Program-made: the position numbers and the translations under genes
Origin: a virus
Taxonomy: Duplodnaviria > Heunggongvirae > Uroviricota > Caudoviricetes
Length of the DNA: 37,692 bases
Reading direction: 5' to 3' (one strand)
Virus record (IMG/VR): IMGVR_UViG_2541047799_000005
Shown here: piece by piece, positions 19,360 to 32,523 of the stretch
Layout: each line of letters opens with the position of its first letter
Position numbering within the stretch: position 1 is the first letter of the stretch
The notes under the pieces: generated by a model
Seen by the model: only the letters and a program-made list of their open reading frames with translations
The model's database searches: none
What the model was told of the DNA's origin: nothing

Positions 19360-20442
19360 ATGAAAAAATTAACAGTGGCAATTTCTGCTGTAGCTGCATC
19401 AGTACTGATGGCGATGTCTGCTCAGGCAGCTGAAATTTATAATAAAGACAGTAACAAGCTGGATCTGTACGGGAAAGTTAATGCTAAGCACTACTTCTCC
19501 TCTAATGATGCAGATGATGGTGATACTACTTATGCCCGTCTTGGCTTCAAAGGTGAAACCCAAATCAACGATCAACTGACTGGTTTCGGTCAGTGGGAAT
19601 ATGAATTCAAAGGCAACCGCGCTGAATCTCAAGGTTCTTCCAAAGACAAAACCCGTCTTGCATTTGCAGGCCTGAAATTTGGTGATTACGGCTCAATCGA
19701 TTACGGCCGTAACTACGGTGTAGCATACGACATCGGTGCGTGGACTGACGTCCTGCCAGAATTCGGTGGTGATACCTGGACCCAAACAGATGTGTTCATG
19801 ACTGGTCGCACTACTGGTGTTGCAACTTATCGTAACAACGACTTCTTTGGTCTGGTCGATGGCCTGAACTTTGCTGCTCAGTATCAGGGTAAAAATGACC
19901 GCACTGACGTAACTGAAGCCAATGGTGATGGTTTCGGTTTCTCCACTACTTATGAGTATGAAGGATTCGGCGTGGGTGCAACCTATGCTAAATCAGATCG
20001 CACTGACGGTCAGGTCGCCTATGGTAAGAGCAAATTCAATGCCTCCGGCAAAAATGCGGAAGTATGGGCTGCAGGCCTGAAATATGATGCGAACAATATC
20101 TATCTGGCTACCACATATTCTGAAACTCAGAATATGACCGTTTTTGGTAATAACCATATTGCAAACAAAGCACAAAACTTTGAAGCAGTAGCACAATATC
20201 AGTTTGACTTCGGTCTGCGCCCATCTGTTGCTTACCTTCAGTCAAAAGGTAAAGACCTTGGTGTTCATGGTGACCGAGACTTAGTCAAGTATGTCGATGT
20301 CGGTGCTACTTACTACTTTAATAAAAACATGTCCACTTTTGTTGATTACAAAATCAACTTAATTGACGATAGTAAGTTTACCAAAACAGCTGGTATTGAT
20401 ACTGATGACATCGTTGCTGTAGGTCTGGTTTACCAGTTCTAA
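19360..20442 (+). CDS. nmpC: Outer-membrane general porin, NmpC/Lc family (phage-borne OmpC-like)
   Basis: 360-aa ORF with signal peptide ending AQA and porin hallmarks ([17 protein letters not shown]..., C-terminal ...VAVGLVYQF); matches recalled DLP12 NmpC / PA-2 Lc; opposite strand to Q and the lysis genes. Confidence 0.85.
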
Positions 20443-22050: not shown

Positions 22051-22505
22051 TACGCCTCCTGCTTGTCGCGCAGCAGCTGGAACTCGCAGCTCTGCGGAAT
22101 AGTCAGGTGGCAGCCAATATTCACCGCCCAGGCTTCAACCTTACACAGGAAGATATACATCTCTCCGGTATCAAGATCGGAGGTATGGCGTAACGACTGG
22201 ATAGTGGTGATCTCACCGGTTACGACATCAACCAGGTCTTTGGTTTCATAACCGAGATATGTGTGTTTGAGAGCATCTTTTACCCAAGCTGGAGTGGCGA
22301 ACGTTTTACCCCTGCTGATGAGGTATTCACTGATTTCGCTGTACCACATGTGGCTGAGTGCATTCTGGGAAAGACTGCGTTTCTCACGCCACGGTTTAAG
22401 CACCATGCGAAAGCATTTGCCTTCCTCCAGATAAGGCTGGATCTGCTGGCCGATAGCGGTGAAGTTACCACGATGCAATTTGATGCCGTCTTGTGGGAGG
22501 TTCAC
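22050..22505 (-). CDS. ybcN: YbcN-like nin-region protein (DUF1367)
   Basis: 151-aa ORF in the conserved ybcN-ninE-ybcO-rusA order. Confidence 0.65.
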
Positions 22506-22539
22506 GCTTCACCTCCGCAGAGGTCAAACGCTGGATGCA

Positions 22540-22623
22540 AAAAATCGCAGGTGCATCTCTGCATCTGTGAAGGGAGAAGAGAGTTTGGATTGTATGTGCG
22601 CATAAACGTCCCCGTTTAGCGCA
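22540..22623. repeat. Copy A of an ~85-bp imperfect direct repeat
   Basis: aaaaaatcgcaggtgcatctctgcatctgtgaagggagaagagagtttggattgtatgtgcgcataaacgtccccgtttagcgca; repeated at 24473-24557 with about 5 mismatches. Confidence 0.85.
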
Positions 22624-22699
22624 GAAGTCACCGGAGTTGTTCAAGCTCCAATGGCATGATTATGGCTGGTTGATTATTGGAAATCAAATGTGCTGAAAA

Positions 22700-23209
22700 T
22701 TAGTCTGCCAAGTCTTCCTCAGTCGCAACTGGGTAATTCCAAATATCAAAAAAAGCTATAGCCTCCTGCCATTTGCTCCATAAGTTATCAAGTACTTGTG
22801 TAGGTTCCGTACTTTTAAAAACAGAATCAGCCGCATCACCGTTATGAACTTCCTCGTACAGTTCCATTATTAGCAGATTAACAAAGTACTGTTTCAACAT
22901 TAATGCCTGATTACCTTCTTTCTGCTGGCTATCCTGCTTGATGAGCTCCATCGCCCGTACTAGGCACCTGATGATATCCGCTGCATCATTAACGCTCCAT
23001 TCAGATCCGCGCTTATCTTTAGCTGATGAATTGGCTCTCTCAGCGCAAGCCTTTAAAGACTCATAAAGGTAAACTCTATTTTGTAGCTGCAGCGCTTTTT
23101 TTGACGTGCACCAACTTGCAAGCGCCGACCCCGCTGCGGCTAATGTGCCAAACGCAGAAATGCCTGCTGCTATTGCACTTAAGTCGGCACTGTCAAAGTT
23201 CCACATCAT
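22700..23209 (-). CDS. Hypothetical protein with one N-terminal hydrophobic helix; unknown function
   Basis: 169-aa ORF; hydrophobic segment AIAAGISAFGTLAAAGSALASW then a charged soluble region; AT-rich; lies between the direct repeats. Confidence 0.5.
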   Translation of the reverse strand: MMWNFDSADLSAIAAGISAFGTLAAAGSALASWCTSKKALQLQNRVYLYESLKACAERANSSAKDKRGSEWSVNDAADIIRCLVRAMELIKQDSQQKEGNQALMLKQYFVNLLIMELYEEVHNGDAADSVFKSTEPTQVLDNLWSKWQEAIAFFDIWNYPVATEEDLAD

Positions 23210-23444
23210 CGTTACACCTTATATAAACACCCCTCAGTAATATCCAATAAGGTATGTGAACAATCAATATAATTTATATCCGTATCGGCACATAGCGATT
23301 TTAATGCTACTGATAATGGTATCTTTTAGATTATATCGTCCAGTTCCAGTACCCGTATTTTATGAAATGGACTCGCACATTACCAAAAAAAATGCCAGCA
23401 CTTCCGTCATCGCAGAATGCTGGCAGTATTTCTAACTAGTGACT

Positions 23445-24053
23445 TTATTGCAACAGATTCTGACGGAAATATGGTAACACACGACTCCACTTATCATCCT
23501 GCCACGGTTGGAATTTTACATGCGCCGTTTCTCTGGCAAGGATTTCTCGCGCCCTGTTGAGTATCCGAGGATATTCTTGTTCGATTGAAGTGAATCTACC
23601 TGCTTCGCGATGCTCTGCGACCTGAAGAAGGGGCGTAACGTTCTGGCAGGCGGTTAACATCGTATCACTTGCTCGCCATAACCAGGCGAGTGTGCAAAGT
23701 TCGTTATCAGTGAATTGTTTTGTGATTGGGGATTGTTGAACTTCTCGATCGAGAATATCCAGAACCCAGCGGCGGAATTCTTTGGCCACAGGAGTACGAG
23801 CAAACATGGCGATCAAATGGGCTCCGCGAAGGCTAAATACTCGAGACTCCTGCATTCCACGAGGGGTGGTCACTTTGACCACCCTTGTCATCATATCTGT
23901 GAATTCATCTGAGTGCCGAGAGTAAATGCGCTGAACTGCTTTATCGTCCGCATATTCCAGTGCTAAACCAACTTCAGTGGCAGTAAGCCAAATTCTGTTA
24001 TTGTGGCAAATCGGGGTAAACGTCGTTTTGTGGAATGCTAATTGAGTAGTCAT
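23445..24053 (-). CDS. Bro-N/AntA-like DNA-binding protein (antirepressor or Roi-like)
   Basis: 202-aa ORF; N-terminal pattern F..F..I...IWLTATEVGLALEY...AKEFRRWVLDIL is typical of Bro-N/antirepressor N-domains; nin-region location like HK022 roi. Confidence 0.45.
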   Translation of the reverse strand: MTTQLAFHKTTFTPICHNNRIWLTATEVGLALEYADDKAVQRIYSRHSDEFTDMMTRVVKVTTPRGMQESRVFSLRGAHLIAMFARTPVAKEFRRWVLDILDREVQQSPITKQFTDNELCTLAWLWRASDTMLTACQNVTPLLQVAEHREAGRFTSIEQEYPRILNRAREILARETAHVKFQPWQDDKWSRVLPYFRQNLLQ

Positions 24054-24472
24054 AGTATCACCTCATCAGGTTAACCATCACCACCAACGACGCCAATCGA
24101 CTGGTGGTGAACTGTGTAAGGTTGGCGTAACCGGCTACTCAAACCCGGCGCTTCCGAAGAAGCCCTCACACAGCCCACCATAATTTGGGCATAGCCGTGC
24201 TTAGCGCACAAAAAAACCGCTTAACGCGGTATGCGTTGAGTAGTATCCCGGGACGCCAATCCCGTGTGCCGATTTTGCGGCAACGCACAGAATATAGCGC
24301 CGGATAAATCATGTCGTCAACCCCAGTAAATGGACACCATGATGATCACATCCATAGCTGCTACAACAGTTACAACTACCTCAGGCCAAAACATAACGAT
24401 TTCCATATCACCTTTAGCCGCCAGACGAATAGAGACTCCCAATTCTGGCTGTCGAAGTAAAACACCGAATGT

Positions 24473-24557
24473 AAAAAATCGTAGGTGCATTTCTGCATCT
24501 GTGAATGGAGATGAGAGTTTGGATTGTGTGTGCGCATAAACGTCCCCGTTTAGCGCA
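24473..24557. repeat. Copy B of the ~85-bp imperfect direct repeat
   Basis: aaaaaatcgtaggtgcatttctgcatctgtgaatggagatgagagtttggattgtgtgtgcgcataaacgtccccgtttagcgca. Confidence 0.85.
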
Positions 24558-25866
24558 ACCCCACCACCGGGTGTTCAGGCCGACAGTAACTATATTATTC
24601 CCTACTGATTTTTGAAAATCAAAGGTCTTTATACGTCACACGAGAGCAAATATTTCCGAAGAAGAAACCTTTCACCTTGAAAGGATAAAGAGTTCATTTC
24701 ATAAATTGAAATATTCAATAAGAATATTGCAAAAAATGAAATTATTTACTAGCGAGTCTATCTAACTGATAATTATGAAGATTGTAAGCGGTAGCAATCA
24801 CCCGCATACACATTGAACAGGATTTAATACAAAACGTCTTAAATTGTCCGTAAGGAATAGCACGAATGACTCAAACTCCTCTATTACTTGCAATCATATT
24901 TTTATTGGTTGTTCTTGTTCTTTATATAGCTGCAATCAAACGCATCAAAAAAATACAATTAGAATTAAGTGATAGCAATCAAAAAAATGAAGAATACAAA
25001 TCTCGCTTTGCAGATTATTTTAATGTAGAAGAAGAATGTAAGAAGCTTATTGAGAAAACAGAGCAAGAATGCTCCATAATAAAAGAAGAATCCCTAAAAG
25101 TAAAAGAAAATGCCAATAATGAACTAACAAACACCATTGAAAAAATGGATGGTATCAATAAACAAATCCAAGAGCTAAGAAGAACTTATAAAGAGAAGAA
25201 AGAAATATATGATAAACTAGTAAGGCAAATTTCTATTTATTCAGAAGATGTTGAGCTAGCCGAACTAGGATTTTACGAACCTCATTTTAATTTTGAAGAT
25301 TCAGAGCAATTTAAAAACAAAATAAAATCCATCAGGGATGAACAGAAATTAATGCTGCGGGATAAAACCCACTCTGGCGCAGTATATTGTACAACCCAAT
25401 GGACTGTTGAAGGCTCTCGAGCAGAGGGTAAAAAAATGACAGACAGAAATATCAGGCTAACTACTAGAGCATTTAATAATGAATGTGATGCTGCAATTAG
25501 CAATTGCACGTGGAAAAACATCACTAAAATGGAAGAACGCATCACAAAGGCATTTGAGGCCATAAATAAACTAAACGAGCAAAATCACATATATATAAAC
25601 ACTAAATACCTCAATAAAAAACTTGAGGAATTGTGGCTTACCCATGAATATCGTGAGCAAAAACAGAAAGAAAAAGAAGAACAGGCAGAAATAAGGGCAC
25701 AAATGAGAGAGGAGGAGCGTGCACAACGAGAAATAGAAAAGGCCATGCAAGACGCAGAGGCAGAAGAGCGCCGTTATAAAAAAGCAATTGAAGCTGCAAG
25801 AAAGGAAATGGAAAAAGTTACTGGTGACATGAAGCAGCGCCTCGAAAATCGGGTAATGACTCCAAC

Positions 25867-26370
25867 TTACTGATAGTGTTTTATGTTCAGATAATGCCCG
25901 ATGACCTTGTCATGCAGCTCCACCGATTTTGAGAACGACAGTGACTTCCGTCCCAGCCTTGCCAGATGTTGTCTCAGATTCAGGTTATGCCGCTCAATTC
26001 GCTGAGTGTAACGCTTGCTGATTACGTGCAGCTTTCCCTTCAGGCGGGATTCATACAGCGGCCAGCCATCCGTCATCCATACCACGACCTCAAAGGCCGA
26101 CAGCAGGCTTAGAAGACGCTCCAGTGTGGCCAGAGTGCGTTCACCGAATACGTGCGCAACAACCGTCTTCCGGAGCCTGTCATACGCGTAAAACAGCCAG
26201 CGCTGGCGCGATTTAGCCCCGACGTATCCCCACTGTTCGTCCATTTCCGCGCAGACGATGACGTCACTGCCCGGCTGTATGCGCGAGGTTACCGACTGCG
26301 GCCTGAGTTTTTTAAATGGCGGAAAATCGTGTTGAGGCCAACGCCCATAATGCGGGCGGTTGCCCGGCAT
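25867..26370 (-). CDS. insB: IS1 InsB (made as an InsAB' frameshift fusion)
   Basis: 167-aa ORF ...[62 protein letters not shown]... matching recalled IS1 InsB. Confidence 0.95.
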
Positions 26371-26564
26371 CCAACGCCATTCATGGCCATATCAATGATT
26401 TTCTGGTGCGTACCGGGTTGAGAAGCGGTGTAAGTGAACTGCAGTTGCCATGTTTTACGGCAGTGAGAGCAGAGATAGCGCTGATGTCCGGCGGTGCTTT
26501 TGCCGTTACGCACCACCCCGTCAGTAGCTGAACAGGAGGGACAGCTGATAGAAACAGAAGCCAC
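26289..26564 (-). CDS. insA: IS1 InsA
   Basis: 91-aa [46 protein letters not shown]... (zinc-finger InsA). Confidence 0.95.
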
Positions 26565-27392
26565 TGGAGCACCTCAAAAACACCATCATACACTAAATCA
26601 GTAAGTTGGCAGCATCACCGAAAATCGCATTGCCGAACTAGAACAGAGTTTGTCGCAGGCTGAATCAAAGCATCAAAGAGCATTATCCATGGCACAACAA
26701 ACCAAACAAGGTCATGTTTATATTATTTCGAACATAGGTTCTTTTGGGGAGAATGTTTATAAAATAGGCATGACACGACGTCTTGATCCGCAAGACCGTG
26801 TAAATGAGCTCGGTGATGCATCTGTTCCTTTTATTTTTGATGTACATGCCATGATTTATTCGGAGGACGCTCCATCATTAGAAAAAAAACTACATGATGT
26901 CTTCGATAAAAAGAGAGTCAATCTTGTAAATCGTAGAAAAGAGTTTTTCTATGTTACTCTGGATGAGATCAAAGAAGCTGTTAAAAAACACTCTGATTCA
27001 GAAATTGAATTTATTGAGACAGCAGTCGCAAAAGACTTTAATGAGTCATTGGCTATTCGTAATCATGAAAATAAAAAAAGTGACAACAGCAACTCATCAA
27101 TTATACCTGAGCGAAAAACCCCAGAGTTTGCAGATGCAATTTAATTAATTTGTAGTAGCAATAAAGCAGGCATCGTTGAGAATATTTTGTCAGCGATGCT
27201 TACTTCTCTAACAAAAACGGTGATTACCAACGAACTAACGGACTTCAGGTAATCATAAGACAAATGGAACGACTCTCCGGTGATTAGATCCCTGCAATAA
27301 CAGTAATTTTCTACTAACTGAAAAATCTTTAACTGCCGCTCCTATTTCTAAGCTGACTGCTAGATTACATGGTGTGTTACCGATGAAAACCG

Positions 27393-27695
27393 TCACAGCA
27401 AGTTTAAGTTCATATCTCCATACACTGCCAACACTCGTTTCATCGCGGCACTCTGGCGACACTCCTTGAAAATCAGATTCGTGCTCACCTTTCCTTCCCG
27501 TTCTTCCCTGGTAGCGAACCGGTAATACACCGTTCGCCAGACCTTACCATCAACGACCAAGATTCCTGCCCGTGCCATTTTAGCCGCAGCCTGATTTATA
27601 CTGGTTACTGTTGCGCCTGTTACCGCAGCAACGTCCTGCGCACAGAAGCTCTTATGCGTCCCCAGGTAATGAATAATTGCCTCTTTGCCCGTCAT
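27393..27695 (-). CDS. ren: Ren protein (lambda-like), C-terminus diverged
   Basis: 100-aa ORF MTGKEAIIHYLGTHKSFCAQDVAAVTGATVTSINQAAAKMARAGILVVDGKVWRTVYYRFATREEREGK... matching recalled lambda Ren except for the last few residues. Confidence 0.85.
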   Translation of the reverse strand: MTGKEAIIHYLGTHKSFCAQDVAAVTGATVTSINQAAAKMARAGILVVDGKVWRTVYYRFATREEREGKVSTNLIFKECRQSAAMKRVLAVYGDMNLNLL

Positions 27696-31120: not shown

Positions 31121-31594
31121 ATGGAAAAGCCTAGCTTCCCACCTCTTCTTACAGCAGGATTTCATGATATGGATAGTGATGGCATCAAGTCTCTTTGTGT
31201 CGACACCTTCCCAAAATCCGTTAGAAGAAGTATGCTATACTGTAATTTTATACAGCTTATTGAGCAATTTAAACTTGTTAATCAGCAGTGTCTATGTTTC
31301 TCTGAAGTGTGGATCGATGGTTCATTCACTACAGAGAAACCTGAACCTGATGACATAGATATACTCGTGGTCGTCGATTATTTGGCCCTAAACTCTTTGC
31401 CAAACACGCTGATGCCATTGGTCAGCTCATTGTTAAATAGAGATTTTATTAAAGAAAACTACAGCATTGACGTTCTTTTGCTGCCTGAAAATCATCCAGA
31501 AATCGATTATAGTGAAAGGCGAAGTTACTGGAGAGGGTGGTTTGGTTTTGATCGGAAGGAGAATCCTAAAGGCCTCGTGAGGGTAATGTTATGA
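31121..31594 (+). CDS. Small protein with a minimal nucleotidyltransferase-fold signature; first gene of a two-gene cargo operon at the rexAB position
   Basis: 157-aa ORF containing WIDGSFTTEKPEPDDIDILVVVD (G67-S68, nine residues, then D-I-D-I), the Pol-beta-type NTase pattern; AGGA RBS; AT-rich; stop overlaps the next gene's start (ATGA). Confidence 0.5.
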   Translation: MEKPSFPPLLTAGFHDMDSDGIKSLCVDTFPKSVRRSMLYCNFIQLIEQFKLVNQQCLCFSEVWIDGSFTTEKPEPDDIDILVVVDYLALNSLPNTLMPLVSSLLNRDFIKENYSIDVLLLPENHPEIDYSERRSYWRGWFGFDRKENPKGLVRVML

Positions 31595-32523
31595 GCGAAG
31601 AAAAAACATTCAACTCCCTCAAGGAGCGAATTGCGTTCATTCAACGCGATGTGGATCTGCTTGCTCAAAATAAGGGGAGATCATTTGCTGATGACATTAT
31701 ATTTAGATCACTTGACTCCCATCTGAGCGATCTCCGAGAGAGACAACGTGCAATCGATAACCAACATCCTTTACGTGATTTCATGGAGTTGAGATTAAAA
31801 GGTGTTTTGGTCGATTTCGGGTCTATTCCGTTAGATATTCTATCTGTAATTTCAGGTAATCTCGCATCCCTTGTACAGAAAGCAGTTTACCGACTTGGAT
31901 CTGGGAAAGATTCTAGTCGTGTGCCGATTGATGTTAAAAAATCATTAGACATGAGATTGGCAGACTTGCGTCCAGGTTCGACGAAGTTAGGTGTTACTTT
32001 TTCTACTGGTTCTTGCGAGCTCATCGAAACAGTATCCAGTCATGCTGTTAAGGAGATTTTTGCACTACTCTCATCCATTGATGAAGAAACATTCACGGCT
32101 AAAATTGCCGAAATTGGTTCGCAATCAACAGCTAACCTAAAAAACATCATAAATGAGTGCGAAAAATATAGTCTTAACTTTGATCTTACTTGGATTGGAC
32201 CTTTAAGTGATGGTACCAGACAAGTGTCAATTTCTTCAGAAGATATAAAAAAACTGAATGCTCGCTTAGCTTTAACGAAGGTCATTCAGCTACCGGATGA
32301 GCATATATCAGGCGAACTTGCTATTTTATCCATGTACGGGAAATTGGAGATTGCAAGCGAGCTTGGAAAAATAAAGGCTTCTTATCCGATTGATATGTTA
32401 GGAGAAATTCAAAGTAAATATAAAGTTGGTGAACGAATATCGCTCGTAGTAAGCGTTTCTGAGATTCACAATGAAAGATTAGGAACATCACGACGTAACT
32501 ACATGGTTAAAAAAATCGAATAG
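31591..32523 (+). CDS. Hypothetical 310-aa soluble protein, translationally coupled partner of the NTase-like gene
   Basis: ATGA start/stop overlap at 31591-31594; no TM segment and no domain I can recognise by eye; AT-rich; followed by an intrinsic terminator. Confidence 0.5.
   Translation: MSEEKTFNSLKERIAFIQRDVDLLAQNKGRSFADDIIFRSLDSHLSDLRERQRAIDNQHPLRDFMELRLKGVLVDFGSIPLDILSVISGNLASLVQKAVYRLGSGKDSSRVPIDVKKSLDMRLADLRPGSTKLGVTFSTGSCELIETVSSHAVKEIFALLSSIDEETFTAKIAEIGSQSTANLKNIINECEKYSLNFDLTWIGPLSDGTRQVSISSEDIKKLNARLALTKVIQLPDEHISGELAILSMYGKLEIASELGKIKASYPIDMLGEIQSKYKVGERISLVVSVSEIHNERLGTSRRNYMVKKIE

What the first reader, a model, noticed from the sequence alone, without database searches (positions are those of the whole stretch)
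22700..23209. Unrecognised 169-aa membrane-helix protein next to a Bro-N-like gene
The ORF has a single Ala/Gly-rich hydrophobic segment near the N-terminus followed by a charged soluble region and matches no family I know. Its position in a repeat-flanked cargo slot, AT-rich composition and a membrane anchor are typical of superinfection-exclusion or abortive-infection proteins, but this is inference only.
Basis: inference. Interest (0 to 1): 0.5.

Follow-up and report, generated by a model that had tools for sequence, protein, structure and literature searches.

The report
Orphan membrane-anchored accessory protein of lambdoid prophages
The ORF is a real, conserved but functionally uncharacterised accessory gene of temperate enterobacterial phages that encodes a small protein tethered to the inner membrane; it is a reasonable but unproven candidate for a phage-versus-phage conflict function.

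Summary
22700-23209 (- strand) is a genuine gene. It gives a full-length match to PHROG 1779 (function unknown), dN/dS is about 0.15-0.19 between species, and its synteny is fixed in more than 90 loci. It has no Pfam, NCBIfam, PADLOC, PDB-sequence or fold match.

The product is predicted to be a single-pass N-out/C-in inner-membrane protein. It has a short acidic N-tail and an unusually Ala/Gly/Ser-rich helix, which is the best-conserved part of the family. An acidic cytoplasmic helical bundle follows, and 20 of 30 members end in a [DE]xDLx[DSL] tail.

The gene sits in a lambdoid prophage between ren and ybcN(ninB). It is the last cargo gene before a conserved ~190-nt junction, and the slot also holds PD-Lambda-1 (here split by IS1). 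It occupies only about 6% of E. coli ybcN loci, so it is accessory. The neighbouring Bro-N/Ant gene belongs to a separate isrK/C4-controlled unit that ends in a strong terminator, and it is absent from most homologous loci.

Superinfection exclusion or abortive infection remains plausible but untested. The gene always runs with the early operon, and in other alleles it has no room for its own promoter, so expression in the lysogen is not shown. Verdict: a new family of a known general kind, of modest interest.

The parts
22700..23209 (-). orf169 CDS (169 aa, or 168 if the second ATG at 23206 is used); PHROG 1779, function unknown
   Evidence: ORF. PHROG 1779 match at E 1.7e-102 over the full length. 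dN/dS 0.15-0.19. PhiR5_1 has ATA ATG at the start, so the second Met may be the true start.
23114..23182 (-). Codons 10-32: Ala/Gly/Ser-rich predicted transmembrane helix, the best-conserved part of the family (A24, A26, A29 nearly invariant, S32 invariant)
   Evidence: Kyte-Doolittle mean 1.59 in the window and 1.85 median in the family. 74% G/A/S/T. Bulky residues occur only at positions 20, 23, 27 and 30. Flank charges over 30 members: N side K+R 5 and D+E 40; C side K+R 100 and D+E 37, which indicates N-out/C-in. The four-TM fusion P0041 gives the same orientation.
22724..23113 (-). Codons 33-162: basic juxtamembrane stretch (SKKALQLQNR) continuing as one long helix into an acidic five-to-six-helix cytoplasmic bundle
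22703..22723 (-). Codons 163-169: conserved acidic C-terminal tail TEEDLAD (family motif [DE]xDLx[DSL] at the extreme C-terminus)
   Evidence: T163, E165, D166, L167 and D169 are invariant among close homologues. The motif is present in 20 of 30 diverse members.
23215..23220 (-). Shine-Dalgarno-like AAGGTG, 5 nt before the first ATG and 8 nt before the second
   Evidence: Read directly from the sequence. Conserved in the O104:H4 and PhiR5_1 copies. In locus L005 an IS1 end has replaced the sequence, including this motif, up to about 3 nt before the ATG.
23385..23425 (-). Intrinsic terminator (13-bp GC-rich hairpin plus U8) directly after the Ant gene; it separates orf169 from the isrK/C4-ant unit
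   Evidence: RNA fold -22.7 kcal/mol, z = -2.96. Conserved in the O104:H4 and PhiR5_1 copies.
23210..23444 (-). 235-nt AT-rich spacer (36.6% GC) between ant and orf169; only the ~75 nt nearest the ATG travel with the gene elsewhere
   Evidence: GC. The whole spacer is found only with the >=94%-identity allele plus the Ant C-terminus. In L061 (no Ant) only spacer positions 159-231 are retained. One promoter-like site lies at 23386-23357 (9 of 12 matches), within the chance expectation.
22506..22699 (-). Conserved ~190-nt junction between orf169 and ybcN. It contains the 33-codon ylcH ORF (22502-22603, whose stop overlaps the ybcN start) and one copy of the 104-nt direct repeat (22520-22623)
   Evidence: The junction is 70-97% identical in nearly all loci, even where the orf169 homologue is only 45-50% identical in protein. 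Repeat. The phage 82 record annotates orf33 and a 'possible regulator-binding site' here. A weak terminator-like hairpin is present (-12.8 kcal/mol, z = -2.1).

Best explanation
Shown with high confidence (about 0.9). orf169 is a functional accessory gene of temperate enterobacterial phages. It is found in lambdoid prophages and a few P1-like phage-plasmids, it lies in the variable ren-ninB slot of the early-right operon, and it is independent of the neighbouring Ant gene.

Predicted from sequence. The protein inserts in the inner membrane as a single-pass N-out/C-in protein. About 9 acidic residues face the periplasm. One weakly hydrophobic helix is lined on most of its surface by Ala, Gly and Ser. 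A basic juxtamembrane stretch follows, then a 120-aa acidic helical bundle in the cytoplasm that ends in a conserved acidic tail. No catalytic-type residues are conserved, so it should act by binding rather than by chemistry. The small-residue face of the membrane helix would pack against copies of itself or against another membrane protein. The bundle and tail would hold a cytoplasmic partner at the membrane.

Inferred, and the function I commit to (about 0.35). It is a conflict protein of the superinfection-exclusion or abortive-infection kind. It would interfere, at the cytoplasmic face of the inner membrane, with DNA entry or early development of a competing phage. It is made at least whenever the early-right operon is transcribed, by read-through of the upstream terminator by N-modified polymerase as in lambda. 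Whether it is also made in the quiescent lysogen is not established.
For: Evidence that this is a real gene and a defined family:
- full-length match to PHROG 1779.
- a small family, with 14 clusters at 90% identity and 34 representatives at 50% identity.
- purifying selection.

Evidence for topology and the membrane helix:
- hydropathy and a 5-versus-100 Lys+Arg asymmetry across the helix. The helix is the most conserved segment, and the P0041 fusion agrees with the orientation.

Evidence for the soluble domain and the lack of an enzyme signature:
- model with pLDDT 81.7.
- conserved residues are hydrophobic plus Q43, N60, W71 and W147.

Evidence that it is accessory cargo in a slot that also holds defence genes:
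- 186 and 26 places for the two E. coli alleles against 3255 ybcN places.
-, with PMC9519451: PD-Lambda-1 lies in the same slot.
- a PDC-M63 candidate system lies in the rex position.

Other points:
- two alleles only 47% identical occupy the same slot in E. coli phages whose flanking DNA is more than 92% identical.
- among 50,697 phage records the family appears only in three lambda-like siphoviruses (PhiR26_1, PhiR5_1 and Erwinia phage vB_EhrS_49).
- the gene is intact in degraded DLP12-like prophages where ant, rusA or ybcN are pseudogenes.
- From general knowledge: the characterised small inner-membrane accessory proteins of temperate phages are mostly exclusion or abortive-infection factors (lambda SieB and RexB, P22 SieA, HK97 gp15). 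Exclusion proteins can also be early lytic genes, as with T4 Imm and Sp.
Against: There is no similarity to any defence or exclusion family and no fold clue.

The gene is always co-directional with the early operon. In other alleles it is packed with a 50-nt gap or an overlapping start and stop, so expression in a repressed lysogen is not indicated. Promoter-like sites in the window are at chance level and are not conserved with the gene.

Only about 9 residues are predicted to be periplasmic. That fits poorly with a direct block of an incoming tail tip.

The helix is only marginally hydrophobic in this allele.

Retention in defective prophages is weak evidence, because the copies are nearly identical and therefore recent. 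In one of them an IS1 has removed the ribosome-binding site.
Confidence: 0.35

Rival explanations
1. orf169 is an early lytic-cycle host-takeover or counter-defence factor. Made with the delayed-early genes, the membrane-tethered bundle would bind and neutralise a host inner-membrane or membrane-associated target for the benefit of the phage's own replication. Possible targets include a membrane-bound abortive-infection effector or sensor, FtsH/HflKC, or a division or transport protein.
For: The gene is strictly co-oriented with early operons in every locus: pR-side in more than 85 loci, and pL-side in Pantoea-type prophages directly after a DNA_pol3_theta (Hot-like) gene. Most alleles leave no space for a promoter. 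From general lambda knowledge, its nin and ea-region neighbours (ren, ninB, Ea22-like, DUF551) are lytic-cycle accessory genes. The cytoplasmic orientation suits an intracellular target. The conserved C-terminal acidic peptide looks like a docking motif.
Against: No similarity to any known anti-defence protein was found. The family is absent from virulent phages among 50,697 records. In this window an intrinsic terminator and a 235-nt spacer precede it. No target can be named.
Confidence: 0.3
2. orf169 regulates the phage's own lysis timing or lysis-lysogeny decision at the membrane. It might act as an antiholin-like partner of the S holin, or as a modulator of FtsH-dependent CII turnover.
For: It is a bitopic membrane protein with a conserved small-residue helix face suited to helix-helix packing with another small membrane protein. 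It is restricted to temperate phages. It is encoded among early genes, as lambda cIII is (general knowledge).
Against: It is present at only about 6% of otherwise similar ybcN-type nin regions, so it is not part of the core regulatory circuit. It is not linked to the lysis cassette. It also occurs in P1-like plasmids and in pL-side positions alongside different lysis and immunity modules.
Confidence: 0.1
3. orf169 is the functional partner of the adjacent Bro-N/Ant antirepressor and the last gene of the isrK/C4-controlled operon.
For: The >=94%-identity E. coli allele is always found directly after an Ant gene, joined to it by the same spacer.
Against: A strong terminator lies between them. 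Ant is absent next to homologues in Scandinavium, Enterobacter, Kluyvera, Phytobacter and Citrobacter, next to the 47% E. coli allele, and next to all distant members. orf169 stays intact where ant is truncated or carries a stop.
Confidence: 0.03
4. orf169 is a chance ORF or a decaying remnant with no function, or a structural or housekeeping phage protein.
For: Close E. coli copies differ too little (3 substitutions) to show selection by themselves. Chance ORFs of this size are common in the window.
Against: Between species, synonymous sites are saturated while the protein is kept at 38-63% identity, and dN/dS is 0.15-0.19. A model-quality fold is obtained from only 30 sequences. The position is fixed in more than 90 loci. 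The gene lies in the early region, far from the head, tail and lysis genes, and is absent from most related phages.
Confidence: 0.02

Closest known systems
PHROG 1779 (phage protein family, function unknown)
   Same: It is a member. The HMM match is end to end (E 1.7e-102). All 30 diverse relatives hit this family and no annotated one.
   Different: Nothing differs. The family simply carries no functional knowledge.
Prophage inner-membrane exclusion and abortive-infection proteins (lambda SieB, P22 SieA, HK97 gp15, lambda RexB)
   Same: Both are small membrane-anchored proteins encoded as dispensable cargo of temperate phages. This one sits in a variable slot that also holds a validated defence gene.
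   Different: No sequence or fold similarity was found. The bulk of this protein is predicted to be cytoplasmic, with a single weakly hydrophobic helix. Autonomous expression in the lysogen, which defines those genes functionally, is not shown. No phenotype is known.
PD-Lambda-1 (DUF4041 + T5orf172; Vassallo et al. 2022, PMC9519451), the neighbour in the same slot
   Same: Both have an N-terminal membrane anchor followed by a cytoplasmic helical region. Both are single genes located between ren and ninB.
   Different: PD-Lambda-1 is about 500 aa, has a strongly hydrophobic anchor (Kyte-Doolittle 2.79, 14% G/A/S/T) and a nuclease-type effector domain, and lies on the opposite strand. orf169 has no effector domain and runs with the early operon.
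Pf3-coat-type N-tail anchors and SAR (signal-anchor-release) domains of phage endolysins, pinholins and T4 RI
   Same: The short acidic translocated N-tail, single helix and basic C-flank resemble Pf3 coat. The helix composition (74% Gly/Ala/Ser/Thr) resembles SAR domains, which can leave the membrane (for the composition; SAR and Pf3 properties from general knowledge).
   Different: SAR proteins are N-in/C-out with a periplasmic domain, whereas the charge bias here says the opposite. No release has been shown. There is no sequence relationship.
P1 immI / Gifsy-1 isrK-orf45-anrP module (C4/IsrK RNA-controlled antirepressor)
   Same: The unit immediately upstream in this window is such a module: isrK, the c4-a1b1 targets, C4 RNA, a small ORF and a Bro-N/P22_AR_C Ant (PMC4825925).
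   Different: orf169 lies beyond the module's terminator and is not co-conserved with it. In Gifsy-1 the sequence after anrP is the isrJ sRNA, not a homologue of this protein (PMC4825925).

Membership tests
PHROG 1779 | Significant full-length match to the family HMM | tested here: met
   E 1.7e-102, residues 1-169 on profile 1-169. 30 of 30 relatives match.
Known anti-phage defence families (PADLOC-DB v2.0.0) | HMM match to any defence-system protein model | tested here: not met
   0 families at E <= 1. The same search recognised PD-Lambda-1 next door at E 5e-102.
Superinfection-exclusion / abortive-infection membrane proteins (SieA, SieB, gp15, RexB type) | Homology to a characterised exclusion protein | tested here: not met
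   Only PHROG 1779 and one unannotated PHROG (E 0.17) match. There is no Pfam or NCBIfam hit and no structural neighbour.
Superinfection-exclusion / abortive-infection membrane proteins (SieA, SieB, gp15, RexB type) | Located in the inner membrane | tested here: inconclusive
   This is a prediction only. Hydropathy is borderline in this allele (1.59) but the family median is 1.85. The positive-inside bias is strong (5 versus 100 K+R), and the P0041 fusion is consistent. No TMHMM-type tool or experiment was available.
Superinfection-exclusion / abortive-infection membrane proteins (SieA, SieB, gp15, RexB type) | Expressed from the repressed prophage | tested here: inconclusive
   A terminator and spacer lie upstream. 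Promoter-like sites are at chance level and are not conserved with the gene. Other alleles have no intergenic space.
Superinfection-exclusion / abortive-infection membrane proteins (SieA, SieB, gp15, RexB type) | Blocks or aborts infection by another phage | not testable with these tools
   This needs plating, DNA-entry and survival assays.
Moron (autonomous cargo unit in a phage genome, in the sense of Hendrix and Juhala) | Present in some but not other closely related phages, with deviant base composition | tested here: met
   186 places against 3255 ybcN places in 5426 E. coli genomes. 44.5% GC against 50.4% for the window.
Moron (autonomous cargo unit in a phage genome, in the sense of Hendrix and Juhala) | Own promoter upstream and terminator downstream | tested here: inconclusive
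   There is one site with 9 of 12 matches at 23386-23357, within the chance expectation. The downstream hairpin is weak (-12.8 kcal/mol, z = -2.1). The feature is not general in the family.
SAR (signal-anchor-release) domain proteins | N-terminal helix rich in weakly hydrophobic Gly/Ala/Ser/Thr residues | tested here: met
   74% in the window and 61% median in the family, against 14% for the PD-Lambda-1 anchor.
SAR (signal-anchor-release) domain proteins | N-in/C-out orientation with a periplasmic functional domain | tested here: not met
   The charge distribution indicates N-out/C-in in 30 of 30 members.
immI-type C4/IsrK-antirepressor operon | Gene belongs to the same transcription unit and co-occurs with Ant | tested here: not met
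   A terminator of -22.7 kcal/mol with U8 lies between them. Ant is absent from most homologous loci.

The most novel reading that the evidence does not exclude
The Ala/Gly/Ser helix may not be a passive anchor. It could be a conditionally inserted, membrane-potential-dependent element: a Pf3-like acidic N-tail combined with SAR-like composition, but in the opposite orientation to known SAR domains. It would tether or release, or oligomerise, the cytoplasmic bundle when the membrane is perturbed, for example by DNA injection from a phage or by holin action. That would make this family a new single-gene sensor-effector (or counter-effector) class, in which the membrane helix itself is the switch. 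This would explain why the helix is the most conserved part of the protein.
Probability: 0.08. Interest if true: 0.65.

Novelty: new member of a known kind. Interest (0 to 1): 0.3.

Why it matters
The slot between the replication genes and ninB in lambda-like prophages is a busy exchange point for cargo, and in this prophage it holds a validated defence gene. A conserved orphan-fold membrane protein in that slot is a concrete, cheap-to-test candidate for a new exclusion or counter-defence function. It is found in about 3% of complete E. coli genomes, including O104:H4, and the exact protein occurs on more than 1000 public contigs. If it has no phenotype it is just one more phage gene of unknown function. 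Two by-products are reusable for mapping such slots: the definition of the conserved ~190-nt junction that bounds the slot, and the separation of this gene from the isrK/C4-Ant module.

Tried and rejected
- **Sequence family searches.** Pfam, NCBIfam and PADLOC scans of the protein gave nothing, as did Pfam scans of 30 relatives. A PDB sequence search gave only composition-driven noise, with PsbY at E 0.012.
- **Rosetta-stone fusion.** P0041 (288 aa) adds three transmembrane helices with no Pfam domain. It helped only with topology.
- **Conserved partner gene.** Upstream neighbours differ in every lineage. DNA_pol3_theta precedes the gene in two Pantoea-like lineages, and Ea22-like plus DUF551 genes lie nearby in two plasmids. 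I regard both as shared early-region gene pool, not partnership.
- **Lipoprotein or signal peptide.** Rejected. The N-region is acidic, there is no lipobox, and C34 is not conserved (Tyr in the O104:H4 allele).
- **Promoter conservation.** The candidate -10 TATAAT at 23331-23336 has a poor -35 and becomes AATAAT in PhiR5_1.
- **Literature.** Searches for the accession, the PHROG id and the PhiR26_1 phage found nothing. The Brenes and Laub 2025 paper, which from memory I believe (unconfirmed) is the source of the PhiR phages, is not held.
- **Alignment-based locus search.** The search with the broad alignment failed for lack of a conserved stretch. It was repeated with a narrower alignment.

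Full report
**What the window is.** The window is a lambda-like prophage of E. coli. Positions 22500-24600 are 100% identical to the temperate phage PhiR26_1 (PV340555). The annotated record and my own scans give this order in the direction of early-right transcription, which is the - strand of the window:
- cro, cII, O, P and ren (27393-27695).
- PD-Lambda-1 on the opposite strand.
- A small ylcH-like ORF, then the isrK and C4 RNAs.
- A Bro-N/P22_AR_C antirepressor (23445-24053).
- orf169 (22700-23209).
- ylcH, ybcN (a NinB relative), ninE, ybcO, rusA, ylcG and Q.
- A porin gene on the opposite strand, then the lysis genes.

**Is the ORF a gene?** Yes, although length alone would not show it, because chance ORFs of 100-220 codons overlap real genes nearby. 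Several results establish it:
- The protein matches PHROG 1779 from end to end (E 1.7e-102).
- The identical sequence is on at least 1000 public contigs, always named hypothetical.
- The DNA is in 181 of 5426 complete E. coli genomes, including O104:H4.
- Orthologues in Scandinavium, Enterobacter, Kluyvera, Phytobacter and Citrobacter are 38-63% identical in protein while synonymous sites are saturated. Where dS can be estimated, dN/dS is 0.15-0.19.

The family is small. It has 14 clusters at 90% identity among 5.8 billion proteins and 34 representatives at 50% identity among 1.84 billion. All members are 150-180 aa except one 288-aa fusion.

**What the protein looks like.** Residues ~10-32 are uncharged and 74% Gly/Ala/Ser/Thr. 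The best 19-residue window has a Kyte-Doolittle mean of 1.59, which is borderline. The family median is 1.85, and 26 of 30 members reach 1.6.

Across 30 members the residues before the helix carry 5 Lys+Arg and 40 Asp+Glu. The 15 residues after it carry 100 Lys+Arg and 37 Asp+Glu. By the positive-inside rule this places the short N-tail outside and the rest of the protein in the cytoplasm. The 288-aa relative P0041 has three extra hydrophobic segments, and their loop charges put the family helix in the same out-to-in orientation.

The helix is the most conserved part of the family. S32 is invariant and A24, A26 and A29 are nearly invariant. Bulky residues occur only at positions 20, 23, 27 and 30. 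This is too much conservation for a passive anchor. It points to specific helix-helix packing.

AlphaFold2 with 30 sequences gives mean pLDDT 81.7. The model has one long helix (7-63) running from the membrane segment into a compact bundle of five further helices (to residue 154). A short terminal helix carries the tail TEEDLAD. A [DE]xDLx[DSL] motif at the extreme C-terminus is present in 20 of 30 members. The soluble part is acidic (pI 4.7). No Cys/His/Asp/Glu constellation is conserved in it. The conserved polar residues are Q43 and N60.

**Genomic context.** This was the most informative analysis.
- **Fixed position.** In 80 IMG/VR viral contigs and 5 species genomes the homologue lies between the replication genes and the nin genes. 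It is on the same strand as them, and it is almost always the last gene before ybcN/ninB or ninE.
- **Conserved junction.** The ~190 nt between its stop and ybcN, which contain the 33-codon ylcH, are 70-97% identical even where the protein is only 45-50% identical. This is a conserved junction at which cargo is exchanged. In the window a second, partial copy (24454-24557, 89% identical) lies upstream of isrK. In other phages the duplicated stretch reaches 156-169 nt.
- **Accessory status.** The gene is at 186 places, and a second allele is at 26 places, against 3255 places for ybcN in E. coli genomes.
- **Two alleles, one slot.** The second allele is only 47% identical in protein, yet it sits in phages whose cII-O-P-ren and ybcN-Q flanks are 92-99% identical to the window.
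- **Distant members.** More distant members lie on the early-left side of Pantoea-type prophages, directly after a DNA_pol3_theta gene with overlapping stop and start. One lies after an N-like gene, and others lie in ~95-kb P1-like phage-plasmids beside phd/doc.
- **No constant partner.** No partner gene is constant across these contexts.
- **Phage types.** Among 50,697 phage records the family occurs only in PhiR26_1, PhiR5_1 and Erwinia phage vB_EhrS_49.

**Relation to the Bro-N gene.** The antirepressor is the last gene of a separate unit. That unit has a promoter-like site (24320-24291) and isrK (RF01394, 58.7 bits). It also has a sub-threshold match to the C4 target sites (RF03163) and a C4 antisense RNA (RF01695, 74.8 bits). 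A 46-codon ORF and then ant follow. This is the architecture described for P1 immI and for the Gifsy-1 isrK-orf45-anrP locus (PMC4825925). It ends in a 13-bp hairpin followed by eight U (23385-23425; -22.7 kcal/mol, z = -2.96). Ant is missing next to the homologues in other species, next to the 47% allele and next to all distant members. orf169 also stays intact where ant is truncated or interrupted. The adjacency is linkage, not partnership.

**Expression.** This is the weak point of the exclusion idea. The window allele is preceded by that terminator and by a 235-nt spacer of 36.6% GC. It has a good Shine-Dalgarno sequence. Promoter-like hexamers are no more frequent than in shuffled sequence (9 found, 5.9 +/- 2.6 expected). 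The candidates lie in the distal part of the spacer, which travels with Ant rather than with orf169. Other alleles have a 50-nt gap or an overlap with the upstream gene. So the family is primarily part of the early operons. From what is known of lambda, N-modified polymerase would read through the terminator during lytic growth. Synthesis in the repressed lysogen is possible but not shown.

**Interpretation.** The anatomy is well supported: a non-enzymatic, membrane-tethered, cytoplasm-facing binding protein encoded as exchangeable cargo. For function I weigh three readings.
- **Exclusion or abortive infection (0.35).** It is favoured by the slot and by temperate-only distribution. From general knowledge, most characterised small membrane cargo proteins of temperate phages do this, and some of them act as early lytic genes.
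- **Early host-takeover or anti-defence (0.30).** It is favoured by the strict in-operon arrangement and the cytoplasmic orientation.
- **Regulator of the phage's own lysis or lysogeny (0.10).** It is disfavoured by the gene's sporadic presence.

Partnership with Ant, a chance ORF and a structural role are essentially excluded.

**Limits.** No dedicated topology predictor, profile-profile library search or multimer prediction was available.

Noticed in passing
window 24100-24320 (- strand): An RNA-controlled antirepressor module lies upstream of the Bro-N/Ant gene. Its parts are a promoter-like site (24320-24291), isrK (24210-24282, RF01394, 58.7 bits) with its own terminator, a sub-threshold match to the C4 target sites a1b1 (24245-24297, 39.6 bits against 46.7), a C4 antisense RNA (24100-24185, 74.8 bits), a 46-codon ORF (24071-24211) and then ant. 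The layout is the same as P1 immI and the Gifsy-1 isrK-orf45-anrP locus (PMC4825925), placed here in the nin region of an E. coli lambdoid prophage.
   Followed up: partly
window 24866-27144 (+ strand), IS1 at about 25852-26619: The defence gene PD-Lambda-1 (DUF4041 + T5orf172) is split by an IS1 insertion. The N-part (24866-25873) matches PADLOC PD-Lambda-1 positions 1-330 and the C-part (26650-27144) matches positions 338-485. The gene is intact (1503 nt) in phage PhiR26_1 and in most IMG/VR copies.
   Followed up: partly
window 31121-32523 (+ strand): Two genes lie directly downstream of cI, in the position of lambda rexAB. They match the PADLOC candidate system PDC-M63: A is a DUF6932 protein of 157 aa (E 7e-43) and B is 310 aa (E 4e-42). 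This is a probable lysogen-expressed defence cargo.
   Followed up: no
window 22506-22699 and 24454-24557; the same element in L006-L104: A ~190-nt junction element precedes ybcN/ninB in lambdoid phages of several genera. It contains the 33-codon ylcH ORF and a weak hairpin with a T-run. It is far better conserved than the cargo on its upstream side, and it is duplicated on both sides of the Ant+orf169 block. The phage 82 record annotates a putative promoter and a 'possible regulator-binding site' here. It may be a recombination linker or a tR2-like regulatory site; its function is not established.
   Followed up: partly
L083 5935-6444 (IMG/VR) and 26 E. coli genomes: A second allele of the family, only 47% identical in protein, occupies exactly the same slot in E. 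coli phages whose flanking genes are 92-99% identical to the window. It has no Ant gene and only 50 nt separate it from the upstream gene.
   Followed up: partly
L005 4546-4640 (E. coli FELIX_MS533): In one defective prophage an IS1 end has replaced the sequence, including the ribosome-binding site, up to about 3 nt before the orf169 ATG, while the coding sequence is intact.
   Followed up: no
window 19360-20442 (+ strand): An OmpC/NmpC-like porin gene (360 aa) lies between Q and the lysis cassette, on the opposite strand, in an AT-rich setting. This arrangement is known for DLP12-type prophages.
   Followed up: no
L011/L012 6762-7540 and L016-L018: Distant family members in Pantoea-type prophages directly follow a DNA_pol3_theta (P1 Hot-like) gene, with stop and start overlapping in L011. 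In P1-like plasmids the family member lies beside phd/doc. It is unclear whether the recurrence of the theta-like neighbour means anything.
   Followed up: no
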